Shown in pieces: positions 1-64,000 of a DNA stretch of 64,000 nt. Source of the DNA: Naegleria gruberi (Eukaryota); the NCBI GenBank assembly GCA_000004985.1, contig GG738907.1; one strand, given 5' to 3'. Below the pieces are notes generated by a model. The model made no database searches, had not been told where the DNA came from, and saw only the letters and a program-made list of their open reading frames with translations. The position numbers and the translations under genes are program-made. Numbering within the stretch: the stretch's first letter is position 1; each line of letters begins with the position of its first letter.

Positions 1-754
1 TATAGTCTTTGAACTTATTGGAAAGGTCAATAAGGAAGGAAACACTCCAGTCACCTTACAATTCTTTGTAGATGAAGAATTGGGTAATCAAATCAAGAAT
101 GCCACTTTCAAAAACCCACTCATGTTTGATAAAAACAGACATGAGCTCCCTGATGAAGTAAGAAATGCAGTAGAAACTTGGATCGCTATTCGAAAGAAGG
201 CATGTGATGAAAATGCAGAGATGAGCTCCATAAAAATCACGACAACCAAATTGGCAGCCTATGCAAGTAATACATTTGTGAAATGCTCAAAATCAGGTGG
301 ACCAACTTATTGTTTGGTTGGTGATGCAGCCTTTGGGATGCCCTTTTTTAGAAGTTTGAATAATGGCATGTTATGTGGAACTGAACTAGCTCAAGCAATT
401 TCACTTGACTTTGCTGGAATGAAAAAGAAAGAGTCAATTTTCAAATCATTAGGAACAAAGATTTCAGGTGTTGTTTCTCAACAAATTGGTGGAAGAACTT
501 CACCTTCCGAAGGTCCCGTTTCTGATACTATGGTTGAATATGCAAATTATGTACGAATGTTGGAACAGAAAGAGTATAATTTAGCAAAAATCAAGAGCTC
601 AGGTCTAGTTGCATTTAGAATGTTCACTCGTGTGAGCTCTAAAGTGCCATGGCAAACGAACAAATTTTCACAGGAAGAAATAGATGAAATCAATAAGTGT
701 AAGAATTCGTATAGTGATGATAATCGAGTTAGCTCGTTGATGGACTCTCTTTAA
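1..754 (+). CDS. FAD-dependent monooxygenase-like protein, 5'-truncated by the window edge (C-terminal part only)
   Basis: The reading frame is open from nt 2. The tool's start at 80 is a TTG, and the frame runs upstream as IVFELIGKVNKEGNTPVTLQFFVDEELGNQ. The motif CLVGDAAFGMPFFRSLNNGMLCGTELAQ resembles the GDAAH..P..GQG.N.G..DA substrate/FAD motif of flavin aromatic hydroxylases, with H>F and a degenerate GQG. Stop at 752-754. Confidence 0.45.
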   Translation, partial: IVFELIGKVNKEGNTPVTLQFFVDEELGNQIKNATFKNPLMFDKNRHELPDEVRNAVETWIAIRKKACDENAEMSSIKITTTKLAAYASNTFVKCSKSGGPTYCLVGDAAFGMPFFRSLNNGMLCGTELAQAISLDFAGMKKKESIFKSLGTKISGVVSQQIGGRTSPSEGPVSDTMVEYANYVRMLEQKEYNLAKIKSSGLVAFRMFTRVSSKVPWQTNKFSQEEIDEINKCKNSYSDDNRVSSLMDSL

Positions 755-1073
755 CAACATAAACATGTAACACACAGTAAACAGCTACCGTAGTTTTTCG
801 CTTTGTACATGTTGTGTTTCTCATTAATTCGCGAATGGTCCAAGTTGGGGTGGCACTAATTGCGTGCAAATTAGCGCCCGCAAAATATCTTCTGTTTTCT
901 CACTGGTCCTAGCATTTCATATCTTTTGTAATCTCTTTGAACATTTCACACAAGCATTTTAAGGCAAATTTTAGATACTTTACTCTACTCCGAACTAAAC
1001 TCCTTTATAAGCATGTCTAAATCAATAAATAGTCAACTTACCACCAACGTTCGTATAAACGATTAGAAAAAAT

Positions 1074-55196: not shown

Positions 55197-55791
55197 TTTT
55201 TTTAATTGTTAGTTGTTTGATTTGTAACATCAGATGATTGCTTTATTGCTTTTCATAAGATGATTGCAATCATGTTATCTTCCTGATGAAGATCAGCTGG
55301 CTGCCTCCAACAGACAAAAATTCAACTCATTGGACAACGATGATGATCATAAAAGTTTAATGTGGCTTGTTTTGTGTGGCGTTTAATGTCCTATCGGAAT
55401 GAATCCATTTGGTAGACAATTATTTTCGTTATAGTAATCAGGAATGATGGTTCCTTTCTCTTTACAAAGTTGCTGTTGTTAGCAAAGAAATAGGATTGTT
55501 CAATTCATTGTTTGGAAATTTCCAAGTTGTATTATTAAACGTTTTTGTTCATGTAATTAGCGCCATATTGACCGTTACATATTTTTTAAATATTCAAATT
55601 TTTTTAAAAAAACAATTTCAAACAAATAGGATGAAAAGGAATAATTGTATTATTGGCAATTTTGGCGGATGATAATAGTGCATACCCGTGATACTTTTCA
55701 GGTCCATACAACAAGTGGTGCAAAATTGGTTTAGATAGTGAATAAGTGGTAAAGTAATGGCAAAAAATTGGTGGAATTTTCAGAAAACAAA

Positions 55792-58700
55792 ATGTTCAAA
55801 GGCTCATACTACGAGAAGGTTCTTGATGAAGAGGAGAGTTTCAAACCAACAACAACACCATCATCACCATCAGAACAACATGAAGATGTAGATAGTACTT
55901 CTTCGGAGGAAAATAATATACTTCCACCAATGATATCATCTCCAATGGAAAAGAAGGAAAATATAACGGTTGATCGAATGGAAACAAAGGCTTGTTCGAA
56001 GGCTTGTTGTTCTTCATCATCATCATCGAAGGCTGGTTGCTCAGAGGAAGAAGAACAACACGAACATTCGGCAGTTAATAGTACTCACAAACATAGTAAA
56101 AGAGGAACGAAATCAAAGTTGATGTATGGAAAGAAGAAGATCAAAATTAGTCAACTGCAACATTTGACAAAACAACATGATGAACATCATCACGAAGAAG
56201 AAACGACGTCAGAAACAACAAACATTTGCGAGAAGTCAAGCTCTTCTAATTGTTGTTCTTATGGTTCTTGCTCAAAGGAAAAACAAAAAGAACCAAACAA
56301 TGCAATTGTTTCAGATTGCTGTTCTTCAGGTTCCTGTTCCAAGAAAAGCAATGTTCCAGTTGAGAAGAAATCAACATGTACTTCTGGTTGTTGCCAGTCA
56401 GTATCAACTTCCACTGAGAGCAGAACAGAATTGAAATTGGATAATTTACTTCCTAATCACAAGTCTCTGCATTTGACTGTGAGAAATTTGCATTGTGCTG
56501 ATTGTGCCAATATGGTTGAGGGAGTTTTAATTAAGAAGAATGGTATTCTGAATGCCAGAGTGAATAGTATGACAGATTCAGCTCATGTAGTATATGACGA
56601 ATTAATTATACAAGAAACATTAATTGTAAAATCAATTCAAGACCTTGGATTTCCAACTAGTGTCTCTCTATTGAAAAACATTTCAAATTCTGATCAGGAA
56701 ACTCTTACAACCATGTTCGAATTCAAACAGGAGTTACAAACACACAAAGTAGATGAATTAGTTAAGAGCATTGAAAAAGGGGATGGCATTATTCATACGG
56801 CCTATGATACATCGAGTTGTCTCCTCCAAGTGGCTTACAATCCTGATATTACAGGTACAAGAGATATTAAGAAAATGATTGAAACCATCGATTCGAGCCA
56901 TATGTTTACAATTATGAGTGGTAGTAAAGCTAACGAGATTACCGATCAGAACAATAAGAATGAAATCAAAATATGGAGGAGAAACCTTATTGTTTCCTTC
57001 ATTCTTAGTATTCCAGTCATATTTACAGCATTCATCTTTCCAATGATCAAACCAGTTGATGAATTTTTGAAGAAGGAATTCTTACAAGGCCTCAATAGTT
57101 ATATTCTTATTGGATTTATTTTCTCAACACCAATCCAATTTTATTTTGGAAGACCATTGTACATGTCAGCTTACAGAGCTCTACGATATGCAAAAAAGCC
57201 AAACATGGATACACTTGTAATGCTGTCAACTACCACTGCTTATGTTTACTCGTTAGTGAGTACAATAATTGCAATGTTTGTTGAGACTTACAAGGCCGAA
57301 GCATTCTTTGAAACTTCGGCACTCTTGTTGACATTTATCATTTTGGGAAGGTAGGTTTTCTTACTTGTTATTAATTTTATTTATAATTACTATTAAGGTT
57401 TTTGGAAATACTTGCCAAAGGACAAACTTCGAGCATACTTACTTCCATTTTGAAACTCAGATGCACCAAAGCTTTTTTGATATTCAGAGGAAACTATGAA
57501 AGAATAACATGTCAAACCGAACTTGTAAATAATTCACATGCTGTAGAGGAAGAGGAGATTGATACTGATCTTGTTCAAAGAGGCGACATTTTAAAATGCC
57601 TTCCAGGTTCAAAAATTCCAACTGATGGAGTAGTGTTTTATGGCACTACATCGATTGATGAATCAATGATTAGGTAAGTTTTGAACCATAATTTAATTTG
57701 ACATTATTCAACCATAATAGTGGTGAATCTATTCCAGTTAACAAGGATGTTGGAGATTTTGTTTATGGCAGTACAATCAATCAATTTGGAACAATCTATA
57801 TCCGTGTAACAAAAACTAGTTCTGAAAATACTCTTTCTTCAATTGACAAATTAATTCACGAATCTCAAAATGCTAAAGTACCCATTCAAAGAATTGCTGA
57901 TAATGTTAGTGCAGTGTTTGTACCTGTAATTATTGGTATTTCCTTATTGGCTTTTATTATTTGGATCAGTTTGTGTTATGCTGGAGTTTTGGAAACTGAC
58001 CTGCATCCAATCACCTTTGCTTTACAGTTCTCTCTTGCAATTTTGGTAATTAGTTGTCCTTGTGCTATTAGTTTGGCAGCTCCAACAGCTGTGATGGTCG
58101 GTATCGCCAAAGGTGTTGAGTATGGTGTACTATTCAAGAATGGTGCTGTAATTGAGATGTGCCACAAGGTTAACACAGTCATATTTGACAAGACTGGTAC
58201 CTTAACCAATGGAAAACCAGTTGTTACAGACGTGTTGCTTTTTGAGGGAGATGATTTGAAGCAATTCAAAGCAATTATAGGTTCTGCAGAGTTGGGAAGT
58301 GAACACGTTATTGGAAAGGCTATTTCAACACACGTAGAAAAGGAGGGAATAGCTATAGAACAACCTGTTGATTATCAAGCAGTTCCAGGAAAAGGATTAA
58401 AATGTACAGTCTATGGAAAACAAGTGATTGCAGGTAATTGCACTTGGATGAAGGACAATTCAATTGAAATTTCAGAAACACAACAAGAACAAATTTTAAC
58501 TTTGGAGAATCAAGGAAAGACAATTGTTCACGTTGCAATCGATGGTTCTTTACATGGAATTGTTGCCCTCTCTGATACTCTCAAGGTGGAATCCAAACGA
58601 GTTATTGATGAATTGAAGAAGAAGAATGTGGAAATTTGGGTGGTTAGTGGAGACAACCAAGTCACAACTAGATATATCGCCAACCAATTAGGCATTGAGA

Positions 58701-59155
58701 ATGTAATGGCCAATGTCCTTCCAGCCTACAAGAGAGAAAAAGTGCTTGAATTGCAACAAGGTAAAACTTCCAATGGTAAAAAGAGAGTTGTTGCAATGAT
58801 TGGAGATGGTATCAATGATTCACCATCTCTAGCCCAAGCAGATGTTGGTTTTGCAATTGGATGTGGTTCAGATATTGCCTTAGAAACTGCGGATATCATT
58901 TTGGTAAAGAGTGATTTGAGAGATGTGCTTGTGGCTTTGGATTTGTCAAGGACTACTTTCAGAAGAATCAAACTCAACTTTTTATGGGCCTTCCTTTATA
59001 ATGCTGTTGGTATTCCATTATCTGCTGGAGCATTCTATCCAATCCTTGGTATTGCAATTCCACCAGCTATTGCAGGATTATCTGAGATTTTCTCTTCCAT
59101 TCCTGTAATTCTCTTCTCCTTACTTTTGAAATTCTACAAACCAAAGATTTATTAA
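55792..59155 (+). CDS. P1B-type heavy-metal (Cu+-type) transporting ATPase in three exons: join(55792..57350,57398..57673,57721..59155)
   Basis: ATG at 55792. Two 47-nt introns (GTAGGT...ttaag and GTAAGT...ataatag) join in frame to give LGR|FLEILAKGQTS and MIR->TGESIPV. Motifs found: CPC (SCPCAISLAAPTAV), DKTGTLT, GDGINDSPSLAQADVGFAIG, and TGESIPV. The N-terminus has Cys-rich metal-binding-like clusters and an HMA-like fold carrying CADC instead of CxxC. Confidence 0.85.
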
Positions 59156-59306: not shown

Positions 59307-60619
59307 ATGACCTCCACTATTTGTGAAGAAGAAACTAACCAAACGAATGTGGAGCAACAACTTTCAACTAGTAGTAGTATCAACAATACACCATTATCGG
59401 ATACTGTGGAAACAAATCAGGGTGCTAATATAGGAGAAACCAAAAAGATGGGAGAAACTAATCATGCAAACAAACGCAAGTCTCAAAATCAGCACAAAAG
59501 AGAAGAAACTCCAATAATATACAAGGTGAAAACACCGGAAATTATATTATTCAACTCTCCCAAGATGGTGCTGGAAAGGATGAAAGTAGATGGTATTCGA
59601 AAGTCCAAGCTAACGGTTGACCAAATAATAATCCTCTCCTTGTTTGCTGGTTTATTCATCGGATTGGCTTGTGCTATGGCCATATTGATTGGAGGAAACG
59701 TTCCAGACCTAGAAGAAAAAAACCCAGGTCTCCAGAAACTTCTCTCCGGTGCGTAAGTTTTTCACACTTTCATTTTCATTTCACACACGAGATTCGAATA
59801 GTGTTTTTCCTATTGGATTGATTCTTATAGCCATGACTGGTTCTGAATTGTTTACTGGTAACGTTTTGGTCTTGTTAGTTGCCTTGTTTTCAAGAAAATG
59901 GAGAGCCAAAAAGTTTCTTCTTCAGTAAGTGAAATAGTTTGAAATTAATAATTGAAATTTTCAAAGATATACACAATTTTCAAAGAATTTGTTCGTGAGC
60001 TACTTGTTCAATTGCTTGGGAGCATTTCTATTTGCCTACTTTTTCGTGTATTTACCACAACCTTGCTGCTCTGCTTATTGGATTAAATACATACAGAACA
60101 TGTCAGTTGCCAAAACGACAAAAACTTTTGGAAATTTAGTGTTATTGGCAATTATTTGTAACATGTTAGTGACTGTTTCTGTATTCTGCTGTAATGCAGC
60201 AACTACATTGGGAGGAAAATTTCTTGGCATTTGGTTTCCATTAATGACATTTGTTTGTTTAGGATTTGAACATAGCATTGCAAATGCTTTTTACATTCCT
60301 CTTGGCATGCTTGTAAGTAATTTTTCAATTAATTTATGAAAATTTATTGTAAACTCAATGTTAGTATGGAGCTAATGTAACAGGATATGATTTTCTTATT
60401 GGAAACTTACTACCTGTCACTATTGGAAATATAATTGGAGGAGCAATTATTAATGGATGTTTATTATATTATGTACATGATTTTAGAGTGAGACATCATA
60501 GAGCCATATTCAATTTTGCAGAGAAAATATGGGAAAAGATAAAGAAGAGGAAGGAAAATACAGAATCAAACACATCTTCATCTATTGAACTATCCGAAAG
60601 TAAAGAGAATATGGTCTAA
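59307..60619 (+). CDS. Formate/nitrite transporter (FNT) family channel in four exons: join(59307..59752,59802..59924,59967..60312,60365..60619)
   Basis: ATG at 59307. Introns of 49, 42 and 52 nt begin GTAAGT and end AG, and all junctions are phase-consistent. FNT signatures: AMTGSELFTGN, GFEHSIANAF, LLPVTIGNIIGG. Confidence 0.75.
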
Positions 60620-60831: not shown

Positions 60832-63273
60832 ATGTTACCTCCTCATCTCTTCAAATCTTCTGTTAATATCAAACCTGATCGTTCCAATTTTACATTGGAA
60901 AGGAATTATGATCTGATTCAGGAATCTCTGATGGAAAAACGTGAAATTTTAATTCCTGGCGAGGAAATTGAAATTGATTCACATGTTTATTGTGTTAATT
61001 TGTTTAAAGTAGCAAATTCGGGTGATGAAAATAAAGTAGTGGAAACAGTTGATGAAAAGATGAATTCGGGTGATGGAAAGGAATTGATTCGAAATAAGGA
61101 TCATTTGTTCTTGGTTGACCATTTGTTGCATCAGGAAGAGTGTAAAGAAATATTAAAGAAGGAAGAATCGTTGGGTTTCGAATCAATTACTTCTGAATAT
61201 CCGGTTGAGTATAGAAATAGCAAGAGAATTCTTTACAATGACAAGGAATTGGCTGCCAAGTTATGGAAAAGATTGAAAAAGTACATGATTGATTGTAATT
61301 TTATGAAACCTTATGGTTTAGACAGTGAAGGTTATTGGATTCCAATATCTGTAAACGAATGTATGAGATTGAGCAAGTATGAACCTGGAAATTATTTCAA
61401 ACCTCATACTGATGGTCAATTTGTGAGAAATGATGATGAGAGAAGTATTTACACATTGATCATCTATTTGAATGATGGATTTGTTGGTGGCGAAACTAAA
61501 TTCATGAGAAGAGTTGATCCTCTCGCTGAAAATGAAATGAAATTCAAGAATTTATGTGAAATTAGTCCCAAGATGGGAAGTGCATCTGTGTTTAATCATG
61601 ATTTGTATCATCAGGGATGTCTAGTAACAGAGGGTGTGAAATACATTTTAAGAACTGAAATAATGTTCAAGAGAATTGACTCAGCTGAGCAATTAGTGAC
61701 TAAACAAGATAATGATGAGATCTATAACAAAGTTATGGATCTTTTGCATGAAAGCGACCAACTGGAAAGGAAGGGGGACACTTACCAAGCAACCAAACGT
61801 TATATAAGTGCACAGGAATTATTGATCAAAAGTGGACATTCAACTTCAATGTTAATGAATCCAAAATTTCTTTCTAAAAGGAAAACTCTCAATGCTGAGA
61901 ATTATTCAATGAAGAGCTCAATTTCTCGATTACCAGATGAGATTATCTCACATATTTGCAAATTTTTGAATGACTGGGAAATTTGCAAGCTCATTCTTCC
62001 ACTCGACAGATATTTCAATGATATTGGACGAAACTCACCATTATGGGAATGGATGTATATGAAAAAATGGGGACATTCTATCACTAATTTACTGAAACAA
62101 TTTCACTCAAGAAATATTGAGGAGCTTAGAAATCTCAATTCACAAGACAATACAAGCTCACTTGAAGAAACACCAACTGAGGAGCAGGATTGGTTCCATA
62201 TTTATATCATGAAACGATATTTTGAAAAGGAGTTTGAACCAATTTGTGTGGATTTTGGTCCTGATATGTATTCCTTTACATATTTTGCAACCATTAATGG
62301 AGATATCGAAAGAGTTGTAACTAGACCCATAAAAGGGGCCACCAGACAGTAAGTAGAATATTTGTGAAACTTTCCAAGATCTTTTTGAAAATAGTGCAAC
62401 CATCACTAAATTTTGCAGTTATATCTTACCAGATTATCATAATCAAAACTCTCGATCTCTGGCTGGAGCAGTTAAAATTCATGATTTAAATAATGGTGGC
62501 TATTCGAAATATGTTCAACCATTCGTCAACTTGCTTTACAAAAAATTGAACAAGAGTTGTCAAAGGAATCCGATTATTATCAGTTGTGGATCGAGTGAAT
62601 TTATGAATTTCAATTCTTGGAAAGAAGTATTATTGGATTACATGGTAAGTATTTCACATTAGTTCATCAAATATATTCTGAAATCGTCTAGTTCAAGATT
62701 AAGATCCCAGCTGTTTGCGTGCTCCCAAGATGTTATCTATTAGCAATTTACTTTAATCTACCAACATGTCTAGTTATTGATGTTTTAAGTAATGCAGTTT
62801 ATGTACATGCCATCATTCAAAATGACAAGGATCAAATTAGAACTGTCTATAAACCCATCACATCTAACAGGAACGTGTATCCTATAAGGCCAGCAGAGGA
62901 TAAAAACTCATTCGAGGGGCCAATAATTAATGCCATTGACACCCTCTTGGATCAATTTTCAGATAATGCCAATCTGAAATCTCATTTAATGGAAAATATT
63001 ATACTTTCTGGAATTATTGTTGAAAATTCTTACGAATTTAATTTCAGAAATCTTGGTGAAGAACCAAAATCAAAAAGAAAAGATTTGGAACGTAACGATA
63101 TTCTCGAGGTATTCAACTCTCCAAATTCCAAATATCAAGTCAAATATCAAGCTAGTGGCGAAGAGGCCATTAAGGGAGCTCAACAATTTTCTAAAATTCC
63201 AAACTTTAAGGATTATTGCACTTATTGGTTCGATTGTGAGAAGTTTGTCAAGCAATTCGATGCATTTGAGTAA
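60832..63273 (+). CDS. Composite protein: prolyl-4-hydroxylase-like 2OG-Fe(II) oxygenase domain, F-box-like motif and a divergent truncated actin-fold domain. Model join(60832..62348,62419..62644,62704..63273)
   Basis: ATG at 60832. 2OG oxygenase motifs: PHTDGQF (HxD), IYLNDGFVGGETKF, NHDLYHQGCLVTEGVKYILRTEIMF. F-box-like RLPDEIISHICKFLNDWEICKLI. Introns of 70 and 59 nt (GTAAGT...AG) are in phase. The actin-like blocks are ICVDFGPDMYSF...VVTRPIKG, QRNPIIISC, and EVLLDYMIPAVCVLPRCYLLAIYFNLPTCLVIDVLSNAVYVHAI (compare actin [39 protein letters not shown]). Confidence 0.5.
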
Positions 63274-63297: not shown

Positions 63298-64000
63298 TTA
63301 CACTTTATCGTCATGCTGCTGCTGCTGTGGTTGTGGAGGTGCTTGTGGTGAGGGAATATATATTGTGGTTGGTGCCTCATTATCACATGTTGATTTTCTA
63401 TAATTCATTGAGTATTGAATGGATTCGTTTGATTCGAATTGTTGATTGGAAATATTTGGATTGACCATTCCATGATTATTCGTCATTGCTAATTCAGATT
63501 CGTTGTGATTGTAATATTGTAAACTTGCATCTGATGTGTTGTTGGTACCAGCAACAATATTACTTTGAAAATTATTGTAATAGATGGGCTGTTGTTGATT
63601 AGGTGGAATGACAGTTGCATTATTTGGAGGATATTGATAATAATTCATCATCATTGGATTCGGTTGACTAAAATAATAACGGTTTACAAAACCTGTATTT
63701 TCAATAATCATAGGATGTTGCTGCACTGTTTCGCCTGTTTCTAATTGCATCACAGAAACATTTGCCAAACCAATTTCACTTCCAGTATTCATTGCAGCCA
63801 TCTTTCTTCTCTGAATAATCATTCGAATAGACAATAGAATAAACAAAACACCCATCACCAACAAAATACCAGCTGATGCACCCAGAGGAATCATAATCGA
63901 ATCATAAACTGGACAATTATCTTGTTTCGGTTGCTTTACACAAGTTGCCATCAAGACTCCCAACACCAAACATGCAATCAACTCTGCAATTGCAATCAAA
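63298..64000 (-). CDS. Membrane protein with Q/N/P/Y-rich cytoplasmic tail, 5'-truncated by the window edge
   Basis: The ORF runs off the window end, and the tool's start is TTG at the edge. It has two hydrophobic helices followed by an N/Q/P/Y-rich low-complexity region. Confidence 0.35.
   Translation of the reverse strand, partial: LIAIAELIACLVLGVLMATCVKQPKQDNCPVYDSIMIPLGASAGILLVMGVLFILLSIRMIIQRRKMAAMNTGSEIGLANVSVMQLETGETVQQHPMIIENTGFVNRYYFSQPNPMMMNYYQYPPNNATVIPPNQQQPIYYNNFQSNIVAGTNNTSDASLQYYNHNESELAMTNNHGMVNPNISNQQFESNESIQYSMNYRKSTCDNEAPTTIYIPSPQAPPQPQQQQHDDKV

What the first reader, a model, noticed from the sequence alone, without database searches (positions are those of the whole stretch)
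60832..63273. Single ORF joining a P4H-like 2OG oxygenase, an F-box-like motif and a divergent, truncated actin-fold domain
Exon 1 is an uninterrupted 506-codon ORF. It contains a prolyl-4-hydroxylase-type double-stranded beta-helix with HxD...H and KY..R motifs, then an F-box-like LPDEIISHICKFL motif, and then it runs directly into sequence that aligns to actin subdomains 1-2. That actin-like sequence continues across two in-phase short introns. It retains the hydrophobic core pattern of actin (MIPAVCVLPRCYLLAIYFNLPTCLVIDVLSNAVYVHAI against [35 protein letters not shown]) but lacks the DSGDG phosphate-2 motif, and it terminates about 100 aa early. A hydroxylase/F-box/actin-like composite is not an architecture I know.
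Basis: partly seen in the sequence, partly recalled or inferred. Interest (0 to 1): 0.65.

Follow-up and report, generated by a model that had tools for sequence, protein, structure and literature searches.

The report
Hydroxylase–F-box–actin-like fusion gene, conserved family
This is a real three-exon gene of a Naegleria-like amoeba that joins a prolyl-4-hydroxylase, an F-box and a stripped-down actin-like domain that has probably lost ATP binding, and it belongs to a widespread protist protein family that I could not find described in any paper.

Summary
Window 60832-63273 (+) is one gene of three exons. Exon 1 is a single 506-codon ORF that already carries three things: a P4H-type 2OG oxygenase with an intact catalytic set (H192, D194, H260, K270), an F-box, and the first ~40 residues of an actin fold. 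The C-terminal region is actin-like: a family profile against human beta-actin gives 99.6% probability, and AlphaFold models hit only actins and Arps.

- **Correction 1.** The domain does not end early. It reaches actin residue ~360 of 375. It is short because subdomain 4 is nearly deleted.
- **Correction 2.** Intron 2 most likely ends at 62691, not 62703. This adds FKIK and gives 774 aa.

The ATP-contacting residues are mostly replaced, so the domain is probably a pseudo-ATPase.

The architecture is not unique to this window. Full-length relatives occur in Heterolobosea, many Amoebozoa, chytrids, a choanoflagellate and a centrohelid. Many come from transcriptomes as single ORFs. All are annotated as hypothetical, and I found no paper on them.

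Most likely function (inferred): a Skp1-docking F-box protein with an active prolyl hydroxylase, whose actin-like domain is a non-polymerising binding module. Interest 0.6.

The parts
60832..63273 (+). Whole gene: ATG at 60832, stop TAA at 63271-63273. The revised model gives 774 aa.
60832..62348 (+). Exon 1. It holds 505 codons plus 2 nt, and read-through gives the 506-codon ORF. It encodes the P4H domain, a helical linker, the F-box, an acidic linker and the start of the actin fold.
61096..61683 (+). Prolyl-4-hydroxylase-type 2OG/Fe(II) oxygenase domain (residues ~89-284). Catalytic residues: H192 (61405-61407), D194 (61411-61413), H260 (61609-61611) and the 2OG-binding K270 (61639-61641).
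   Evidence: Pfam PF13640 at E 2e-10. PDB hits are P4Hs only: B. anthracis 1.2e-9, Cr-P4H 3.8e-6, P4H-TM 7e-4. The residues are invariant in A1 and A7.
61684..61905 (+). Conserved helical linker between the oxygenase and the F-box (residues 285-358; motif LE+xGxxxxATxxYxxAQxL).
   Evidence: Alignments. The P0003 model has helices 312-329 and 333-350 at high pLDDT.
61906..62070 (+). F-box (residues 359-413; LPDEIISHICKFL...SPLWEWMYMKKW).
   Evidence: Pfam is sub-threshold for the window but above the cutoff in homologs at the same columns. Profile A8 against PDB hits FBXL5 at 1.1e-5, FBXO4, KDM2B, Cdc4 and Skp2.
62188..62235 (+). Conserved helix DWFHIYIMKRYFEKEF that leads into the actin-like domain (residues 453-468).
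   Evidence: The W is nearly invariant across 52 sequences. It corresponds to helix 453-466 in the P0003 model.
62230..63240 (+). Actin-like (Arp-like) domain, residues 467-764, interrupted by the two introns. It aligns to human beta-actin residues 4-360.
   Evidence: hhalign 99.6%, E 8e-24. Profile A3 against PDB hits only actin and Arp4. Foldseek on the models hits actins and Arps.
62248..62268 (+). Degenerate phosphate-1 loop VDFGPDM. Actin D11 and G13 are kept; S14 becomes P and G15 becomes D. The downstream K18 becomes S.
62349..62418 (+). Intron 1, 70 nt, GTAAGT...TTTTGCAG. It splits a His codon after 2 nt.
   Evidence: Same position and phase in the N. lovaniensis model (70 nt) and in L003 (44 nt). 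N. gruberi model P0002 is truncated exactly here.
62419..62644 (+). Exon 2 (residues 506-581): subdomain 2 and part of subdomain 1 of the actin fold.
   Evidence: An in-frame 3-nt indel relative to the 99%-identical contig L001 fits coding sequence.
62645..62691 (+). Intron 2, revised to 47 nt, GTAAGT...TCTAG, phase 0.
   Evidence: The N. lovaniensis intron lies 4 codons upstream of IPA. L003 has ATAG|TTC AGA ATT CGT ATT CCA (FRIR-IPAVC) and no AG directly before IPA. The revised model matches actin spacing without a gap.
62692..63273 (+). Exon 3 (residues 582-774 plus stop): subdomain 3, a remnant of subdomain 4, and the C-terminal helices of the actin fold.
   Evidence: AF2 model pLDDT 79, pTM 0.75. 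Foldseek top hits are almost all actin-family: Arp1 at 3.6e-4, then actin, Arp4 and Arp2/3.
62776..62793 (+). Degenerate phosphate-2 loop IDVLSN. Actin D154 is kept; G156 becomes L, D157 becomes S and G158 becomes N. Nearby, H161 becomes Y and Q137 becomes R.
62830..62922 (+). Remnant of subdomain 4. Roughly 30-45 residues stand where actin has about 100-120 (roughly residues 176-273).
   Evidence: hhalign gap pattern. Low-confidence coil at positions 56-74 of the exon-3 model. The P0003 model has only about 20 residues here.
63001..63093 (+). ILSGII motif (actin LSGGTT, with the second Gly lost), followed by a ~23-residue predicted-disordered insertion.

Best explanation
The locus is one protein-coding gene of 3 exons and 774 aa in a heterolobosean (Naegleria-like) amoeba. 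It belongs to a conserved, undescribed family with a fixed domain order.

**Domain order**
- An N-terminal collagen/P4H-TM-type prolyl 4-hydroxylase with an intact Fe(II)/2OG site.
- A helical linker.
- An F-box.
- A C-terminal actin-related domain.

**Proposed mechanism (inferred, not shown)**
- The F-box docks the protein on Skp1, placing it in or next to an SCF ubiquitin ligase.
- The actin-like domain has lost subdomain 4 and most ATP-contacting residues. It therefore cannot behave as a polymerising ATPase. It serves instead as a rigid protein-binding module, in the position where F-box proteins carry their substrate receptor.
- The hydroxylase uses O2 and 2-oxoglutarate to hydroxylate a proline in a bound partner. 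This would link oxygen or metabolite status to the fate of that partner.

**What is shown and what is not**
- Shown here: gene structure, domain identities, conservation of the catalytic residues, purifying selection, and the family's distribution.
- Inferred: Skp1 binding, enzyme activity, the substrate, and the role of the actin-like domain.
For: **One gene**
- The oxygenase, the F-box and the first strands of the actin fold lie in one uninterrupted ORF.
- Intron positions are conserved in N. lovaniensis and L003.
- Full-length single-ORF relatives exist, including Trinity/transcript-derived ones from Physarum, Arcella, Soliformovum and Choanoeca.

**Domains**
- Oxygenase: Pfam and PDB hits.
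- F-box.
- Actin fold.
- The P0003 model has pLDDT 86 and pTM 0.82, which suggests a defined inter-domain arrangement.

**Likely active enzyme**
- H, D, H and K are at least 90% conserved across 52 family members.

**Not a relic**
- dN/dS against L003 is 0.28 overall and 0.34 in the actin-like part.

**Pseudo-ATPase**
- Substitutions: S14P, G15D, K18S, Q137R, G156L, D157S, G158N, H161Y, G302I.

**Precedent**
- Dictyostelium JcdI is a dioxygenase that is also a Skp1-binding F-box protein (PMC9485057).
Against: - No transcript data exist for this locus.
- The window's own F-box is below the Pfam cutoff, and Skp1 binding is untested.
- No substrate is known.
- For JcdI, the F-box was dispensable for the oxygen-sensitisation effect of overexpressing the protein and may only control its turnover (PMC9485057). 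The same could hold here.
Fold evidence therefore comes from exon 3 alone plus a 33%-identical homolog.
- I had no model coordinates, so I could not check whether the active site faces the actin-like domain.
Confidence: 0.5

Rival explanations
1. The F-box is only a degron or regulatory handle. The protein is a hydroxylase that works on cytoskeletal or other targets through its actin-like domain, independently of ubiquitination. Skp1/SCF merely controls its abundance.
For: This is what was proposed for the Dictyostelium F-box dioxygenase JcdI, where the F-box was not needed for the oxygen-sensitisation effect of overexpression (PMC9485057). The same paper notes that many F-box proteins lack classical receptor domains.
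Against: The rigid, conserved F-box, linker helix and C-terminal domain arrangement (pTM 0.82) resembles receptor-type F-box proteins. The F-box and linker are the most strongly constrained part compared (dN/dS 0.16).
Confidence: 0.2
2. The F-box tethers the hydroxylase to Skp1 so that Skp1 itself, or another SCF subunit, is the proline-hydroxylation target. This would be a built-in analogue of the PhyA-Skp1 oxygen-sensing pathway.
For: Skp1 prolyl hydroxylation by a cytoplasmic P4H is established in Dictyostelium and Toxoplasma (PMC9485057, PMC3515798, PMC11570480). Fusing a P4H to an F-box places the enzyme next to Skp1.
Against: The oxygenase profile hits collagen-type, algal and P4H-TM enzymes, with no PHD2- or PhyA-type structure at E<=0.01. 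This idea also leaves the conserved actin-like domain unexplained. I found no paper linking this pathway to Naegleria.
Confidence: 0.15
3. The actin-like part is a decaying relic with no function of its own, or the whole gene is a pseudogene. It would be left over from an ancestral fusion to a real Arp.
For: Subdomain 4 is lost and most nucleotide-contacting residues are replaced. No Pfam actin hit appears for the window protein. This part has a higher dN/dS than the F-box part (0.34 against 0.16).
Against: The frame stays open over ~300 codons in the window, L001, L003, N. lovaniensis and N. fowleri. dN/dS is well below 1. The models are confidently folded. Lineage-specific motifs such as LPTC and PNF+xxCT(Y/F)W are conserved.
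Confidence: 0.08
4. There are two separate genes: a P4H/F-box gene ending in exon 1, and an independent short actin-like gene downstream, wrongly joined by the reader.
For: Gene callers split it this way. P0001 is the 506-aa ORF, and the N. gruberi model P0002 stops at the intron-1 donor.
Against: The actin fold starts about 40 codons before the end of exon 1, in the same ORF as the F-box. Exon 2 has no plausible start of its own. Intron positions and phases are conserved. Transcript-derived relatives carry all three domains in one ORF.
Confidence: 0.03

Closest known systems
Dictyostelium JcdI/Fbxo13 (F-box plus JmjC dioxygenase), and from my own knowledge human KDM2A/KDM2B (FBXL11/FBXL10: JmjC, F-box, LRR)
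   Same: A non-haem Fe(II)/2OG dioxygenase and an F-box sit in one polypeptide. JcdI binds Skp1 through its F-box and is O2-dependent (PMC9485057). The KDM2A/B F-boxes are among the PDB hits of this family's F-box profile.
   Different: The oxygenase here is P4H-type (PF13640), not JmjC. It lies N-terminal to the F-box. The C-terminal partner is an actin-fold domain rather than LRRs or nothing.
Collagen-type, algal and transmembrane prolyl 4-hydroxylases (B. anthracis P4H 3itq/5hv0, Chlamydomonas Cr-P4H-1 2jig, human P4H-TM 6tp5, PBCV-1 P4H 5c5t)
   Same: These are the best and only PDB sequence matches of the oxygenase domain. The HxD...H triad and the Lys at +10 are the same.
   Different: Those enzymes are secreted, ER-resident or stand-alone. 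None carries an F-box or an actin-like domain. No signal peptide or transmembrane segment is apparent in the sequence here (by eye, not tested).
Actin-related proteins (Arp1-Arp11, orphan Arps) and actin fusions such as Dictyostelium filactin
   Same: Actin fold with subdomains 1, 2 and 3 and the C-terminal helices. Actin, Arp1, Arp3 and Arp4 are the top structural and profile hits. Filactin shows that actin domains can carry long N-terminal extensions (PMC2441452).
   Different: Subdomain 4 is nearly absent and the ATP-site residues are replaced. The domain is fused behind an F-box. It is not in the Dictyostelium 'actinome' inventory. It has not been placed in any Arp class.
PhyA-Skp1 and PHD-HIF-VHL oxygen-sensing logic
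   Same: Prolyl hydroxylation is coupled to a cullin-RING ubiquitin ligase.
   Different: In those systems the hydroxylase and the ligase receptor are separate proteins. The hydroxylases there are PHD/PhyA-type, which this domain did not match.

Membership tests
2OG-Fe(II) oxygenase, prolyl-4-hydroxylase type (Pfam PF13640) | Profile match above the curated cutoff | tested here: met
   41.8 bits against a 27 cutoff, E 2e-10, residues 179-273. The family profile hits only P4Hs in PDB.
2OG-Fe(II) oxygenase, prolyl-4-hydroxylase type (Pfam PF13640) | HxD...H iron triad, and a basic residue that binds 2OG ten residues after the distal His | tested here: met
   H192, D194, H260 and K270. These are invariant or nearly invariant in A1, A5 and A7.
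2OG-Fe(II) oxygenase, prolyl-4-hydroxylase type (Pfam PF13640) | Catalyses proline hydroxylation | not testable with these tools
   Needs an enzyme assay.
HIF-PHD / Skp1 hydroxylase PhyA subfamily | Closest similarity to PHD2/PhyA-type structures | tested here: not met
   No PHD2 or PhyA chain at E<=0.01. The hits are collagen-type, algal, P4H-TM and viral P4Hs.
F-box proteins | F-box profile match (~45 aa, LPxE...LW) | tested here: inconclusive
   The window protein alone scores 16.5 bits against a 24.3 cutoff, covering half the profile. Homologs pass at the aligned columns: P0003 35.9, P0011 44.0, P0020 45.7 bits. Subfamily profile A8, which includes the window, hits solved F-box proteins, best FBXL5 at 1.1e-5.
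F-box proteins | Binds Skp1 and assembles into SCF | not testable with these tools
   Needs co-IP or co-expression. AF-multimer was not available.
Actin / Arp superfamily (Pfam PF00022) | Sequence-profile homology to actin | tested here: met
   Pfam finds nothing for the window protein alone, and BLASTP is not significant. With the window as master sequence, the family profile against ACTB gives 99.6%, E 8e-24, over actin residues 4-360. The three-sequence subfamily profile hits only actin and Arps in PDB. Relatives pass Pfam, with E down to 9e-36.
Actin / Arp superfamily (Pfam PF00022) | Actin fold in three dimensions | tested here: met
   P0003 model: the top 50 PDB hits are all actin or Arp3, E ~4e-14, TM ~0.6. 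Window exon-3 model: Arp1, actin and Arp4, E ~4e-4, probability 1.0.
Actin / Arp superfamily (Pfam PF00022) | All four subdomains present | tested here: not met
   Subdomain 4 is reduced to a short remnant.
Actin / Arp superfamily (Pfam PF00022) | Nucleotide-binding loops (DNGSG, DSGDG, LSGG) and catalytic Q137/H161 | tested here: not met
   The window has DFGPD, DVLSN, LSGI, Q137R and H161Y.
Defined Arp classes (Arp1-Arp11) | Phylogenetic placement within a class | not tested
   No Arp reference set or tree was built.

The most novel reading that the evidence does not exclude
The family is an ancient eukaryotic device that joins oxygen/2OG-dependent prolyl hydroxylation and SCF ubiquitin ligation on the actin system. 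The subdomain-4-less, ATP-blind actin mimic would recruit actin-binding proteins or G-actin. Candidates include regulators with proline-rich tracts, which are the kind of substrate collagen-type P4Hs accept. The fused hydroxylase would modify them and the SCF would then act on them. The patchy distribution seen here would fit a role tied to amoeboid or crawling cell behaviour: Heterolobosea, Amoebozoa, chytrids, a choanoflagellate and a centrohelid, with none of the named relatives from animals, plants or higher fungi. This is my inference; nothing here tests it.
Probability: 0.15. Interest if true: 0.85.

Novelty: new variant of a known kind. Interest (0 to 1): 0.6.

Why it matters
F-box proteins that carry an enzyme are rare, and the few known ones (KDM2A/B, JcdI) are tied to oxygen and chromatin signalling. 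An actin-fold domain used as the C-terminal module of an F-box protein has, as far as I could find, not been described.

The same three-part design is conserved, often in several paralogs per genome, across distant protist lineages including the pathogen N. fowleri. It therefore probably does something important that current annotation hides. At least one published gene model (N. gruberi) is cut off at the first intron and loses the actin-like part.

The family gives cytoskeleton, ubiquitin and oxygen-sensing researchers a concrete and testable candidate. It also adds a natural example of an actin fold stripped of subdomain 4 and of ATP binding.

Tried and rejected
- **Direct BLASTP of the C-terminal region against beta-actin.** Not significant, and the best-scoring segments were in the wrong register.
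- **Pfam on the window protein.** It shows no actin hit.
- **Submitting the spliced protein to the representative search.** I worked around this with exon-wise rows and homolog P0003.
- **afdb50 fold search.** The library was not installed.
- **Fetching N. gruberi loci for P0002 and P0005.** Neither was on record.
- **Alternative acceptor for intron 1 at 62394.** It is in frame and would add ATITKFCS. I rejected it because it breaks the family motif H-[YF]-x-L-P that directly follows the split His.
Rejected in favour of 62691 on comparative grounds.
- **Giant-virus origin.** BFVD has only single-domain matches: a Yasminevirus oxygenase and a Hokovirus viractin. There is no tri-domain protein.
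- **Eight literature searches** for the architecture, locus tags and Naegleria Skp1 hydroxylation. None found a description. The supplement of PMC9485057 held nothing relevant.
- **Taxonomic placement from a conserved neighbour gene.** I ran no further search on this. The Naegleria-like assignment rests on best hits, GC content and intron style.
Full report
**1. What is at the coordinates**

The window is AT-rich (34% GC) and eukaryotic, with short GTAAGT...AG introns. Window 60832-62352 is an uninterrupted 506-codon ORF. It ends at a TAA that is created by reading through a GTAAGT donor at 62349.

Splicing 62349-62418 (70 nt) and a second short intron restores a long frame that ends at TAA 63271-63273.

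The flanks are ordinary:
- Upstream lie a heavy-metal P-type ATPase and a formate/nitrite transporter.
- Downstream, a convergent ORF ends 24 bp after the stop.

**2. Gene model**

*Intron 1 is secure.*
- In the annotated N. lovaniensis homolog (L002), a 70-nt intron splits the same His codon after two bases: RIGG|H|YSF against the window's GATR|H|YIL.
- A second metagenomic relative, L003, does the same with a 44-nt intron.
- The N. gruberi model P0002 ends ...KFSQ plus read-through. It was truncated at this donor.
- An in-frame alternative acceptor at 62394 would break the family motif H-[YF]-x-L-P, so I rejected it.

*Intron 2 needs revision.*
- Three in-frame AG acceptors exist, at 62691, 62697 and 62703.
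- N. lovaniensis has its intron four codons upstream of the IPA motif.
- L003 reads ATAG|TTC AGA ATT CGT ATT CCA, giving FRIR-IPAVC, and has no AG directly before IPA.
- With the 62691 acceptor the window reads FKIK-IPAVC. This matches L003 conservatively and matches actin spacing without a gap.
- I therefore place intron 2 at 62645-62691, which gives 774 aa.

*Supporting details.*
- A 99%-identical metagenome contig (L001) differs by SNPs and by one in-frame 3-nt indel in exon 2.
- Against L003 the Nei-Gojobori dN/dS is 0.28 overall, 0.16 for the F-box and linker, and 0.34 for the actin-like part. dS is about 1.2-1.4, which is near saturation, so these values are rough.
- No RNA data were available.

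**3. Domain identities**

*Oxygenase.*
- Pfam 2OG-FeII_Oxy_3 matches above the cutoff.
- phmmer and a family profile hit only prolyl 4-hydroxylases in PDB: B. anthracis at 1.2e-9, Chlamydomonas Cr-P4H-1 at 3.8e-6, human P4H-TM at 7e-4, and PBCV-1 at 4e-3. No PHD2- or PhyA-type chain appears.
- H192, D194, H260 and K270 (the distal His plus ten) are conserved across the family.

*F-box.*
- The window's own Pfam score is below threshold.
- Homologs pass at the aligned columns.
- A profile of the heterolobosean subfamily that includes the window hits FBXL5, FBXW and FBXO proteins, KDM2A/B, Cdc4 and Skp2 over the whole F-box.

*Actin-like domain.*

| Test | Result |
|---|---|
| Pairwise BLASTP to beta-actin | Not significant |
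| Pfam on the window protein | No actin hit |
| Window C-terminus against P0014 residues 475-654 and P0013 residues 523-700 | 3.5e-8 and 6.7e-7 at Z=1e6 |
| Pfam actin on P0014 and P0013 | 1.5e-13 and 3.2e-17; the P0014 hit covers the same region, the P0013 hit partly overlaps |
| Three-sequence profile (window, N. lovaniensis, N. fowleri) against PDB | Only actin and Arps, in the correct register |
| 49-sequence C-terminal alignment (window as master) against human beta-actin | 99.6%, E 8e-24, window 467-764 to actin 4-360 |
| AlphaFold2 model of N. lovaniensis homolog P0003 (33% identical, same short form) | pLDDT 86.4, pTM 0.82 |
| Foldseek on the P0003 model | Top 50 PDB hits all actin or Arp3, E ~4e-14 |
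| AlphaFold2 model of the window's own exon-3 product | pLDDT 79, pTM 0.75 |
| Foldseek on the exon-3 model | Arp1, actin, Arp4 and Arp2/3, E ~4e-4, probability 1.0 |

**4.

The domain does not stop 100 residues early.
- Its end (GAQQFSKIPNFKDYCTYW) aligns to actin GGSILASLSTFQQMW.
- The missing length is internal. Actin residues ~176-273 (subdomain 4) are reduced to a short, partly low-confidence stretch.
- A ~23-residue disordered insertion follows the LSG motif.

The nucleotide-site residues are largely replaced:
- DNGSG becomes DFGPD, and K18 becomes S.
- Q137 becomes R.
- DSGDG becomes DVLSN, and H161 becomes Y.
- LSGG becomes LSGI.

Across the family, D11, G13, K18, G156 and G301 are mostly kept, while Q137, D154, D157, G158 and H161 are not. 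So ATPase chemistry appears lost family-wide, and the window protein is among the more degenerate members.

**5. The architecture is a family, not a one-off**

- A profile of the full-length alignment found 11,885 representatives at E<=1e-3 and 1,316 at E<=1e-30. The top 150 all score at least 219 bits, and many are 700-1000 aa and cover the whole profile.
- Of 30 relatives scanned with Pfam, most show oxygenase, F-box and actin in that order.
- A few carry extra NADAR, WWE or ankyrin modules.

Named sources:
- Heterolobosea: Naegleria gruberi, N. fowleri and N. lovaniensis (at least four paralogs), Willaertia and Acrasis.
- Amoebozoa: Dictyostelium, Tieghemostelium, Physarum, Arcella, Pyxidicula, Soliformovum, Stenamoeba and Dracoamoeba.
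- Chytrid fungi: Rhizophlyctis and Nowakowskiella.
- Others: the choanoflagellate Choanoeca flexa and the centrohelid Pterocystis.

Several of these are transcriptome ORFs. In relatives, then, the three domains are demonstrably on one mRNA.

All are labelled hypothetical, 'F-box domain-containing', 'Fe2OG dioxygenase domain-containing' or, for Acrasis, 'actin'. Eight full-text searches and a look at the Dictyostelium actinome and Skp1-interactome papers found no description.

**6. How it most likely works (inference)**

- The layout matches receptor-type F-box proteins: F-box, then a rigid conserved helix, then the C-terminal domain. The high pTM of the model suggests fixed inter-domain geometry.
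- The oxygenase looks active.
- The actin-like domain looks unable to bind ATP normally. Without subdomain 4 it cannot make actin's longitudinal filament contacts (established actin structure knowledge).
- I therefore favour a Skp1-docked prolyl hydroxylase whose actin-like domain is a binding module for a partner that gets hydroxylated, ubiquitinated, or both.
- The nearest precedent is JcdI, a Skp1-binding F-box dioxygenase of protists (PMC9485057).
- The rivals are: an F-box that acts only as a turnover handle; Skp1 itself as the substrate; a relic domain; and two separate genes. They are weighed in the rival section. The last is nearly excluded.

**7. Limits**

- There is no expression data for this locus.
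- The whole spliced actin-like domain could not be submitted for modelling.
- No Arp phylogeny was built.
- The organism assignment (Naegleria-like) rests on best hits only.

**8. Verdict**

This is a real and correctly spotted composite gene, with two corrections: the cause of the short actin domain and the end of intron 2. It is a member of a broad, conserved and apparently undescribed protist family. I rate the novelty as a new variant of known kinds (enzyme-bearing F-box proteins and orphan Arps). Interest is 0.6.

Noticed in passing
L003 1-1435 (metagenome ERZ929261, contig k127_489854): A second, 55%-identical relative of the gene occurs in the same metagenome that also holds a 99%-identical copy of the window gene (L001). 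It is either a paralog or a sister species. It keeps a Gly at the actin G156 position (VVDIGKYD), which the window protein has lost.
   Followed up: partly
P0002 (N. gruberi predicted protein, 576 aa): The published N. gruberi gene model for the closest named relative ends by reading through the intron-1 donor (...KFSQYVHFYIRHH). The actin-like part is therefore missing from the database entry. This looks like an annotation error.
   Followed up: partly
P0023 (Pyxidicula), P0102 (Logan contig), P0031 (JGI contig): Some family members carry extra domains: NADAR at the N-terminus, WWE at the C-terminus, or ankyrin repeats. NADAR and WWE are linked to ADP-ribose biology. No reason for this link is known here.
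   Followed up: no
BFVD hits to model m169807bed917: A giant-virus protein (Yasminevirus Fe2OG dioxygenase, 333 aa) matches the oxygenase-plus-linker part at E 2.7e-21 with 23% identity. A Hokovirus 'actin-related protein' matches the C-terminal part at 1.9e-9. No viral protein has all three domains.
   Followed up: no
window 55768-59155 (+) and 59307-60619 (+): The upstream neighbours are a heavy-metal (HMA-domain) P-type ATPase split over at least two ORFs, and a formate/nitrite transporter with short GTAAGT introns. Both are ordinary genes.
   Followed up: partly
window 63298-63999 (-): A convergent ORF of at least 233 aa, rich in Q, N and P with hydrophobic stretches and no Pfam match, ends 24 bp from the stop codon of the gene. 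It runs off the window end.
   Followed up: no
family alignment, subdomain-2 region (window residues ~500-530): Most family members share a strongly conserved motif, HPHF(Y)xxxGxGxDDxxxGD, where actin has its DNase-I-binding loop region ([22 protein letters not shown]). The intron-1-split His of the window lies in it. Its role is unknown.
   Followed up: no
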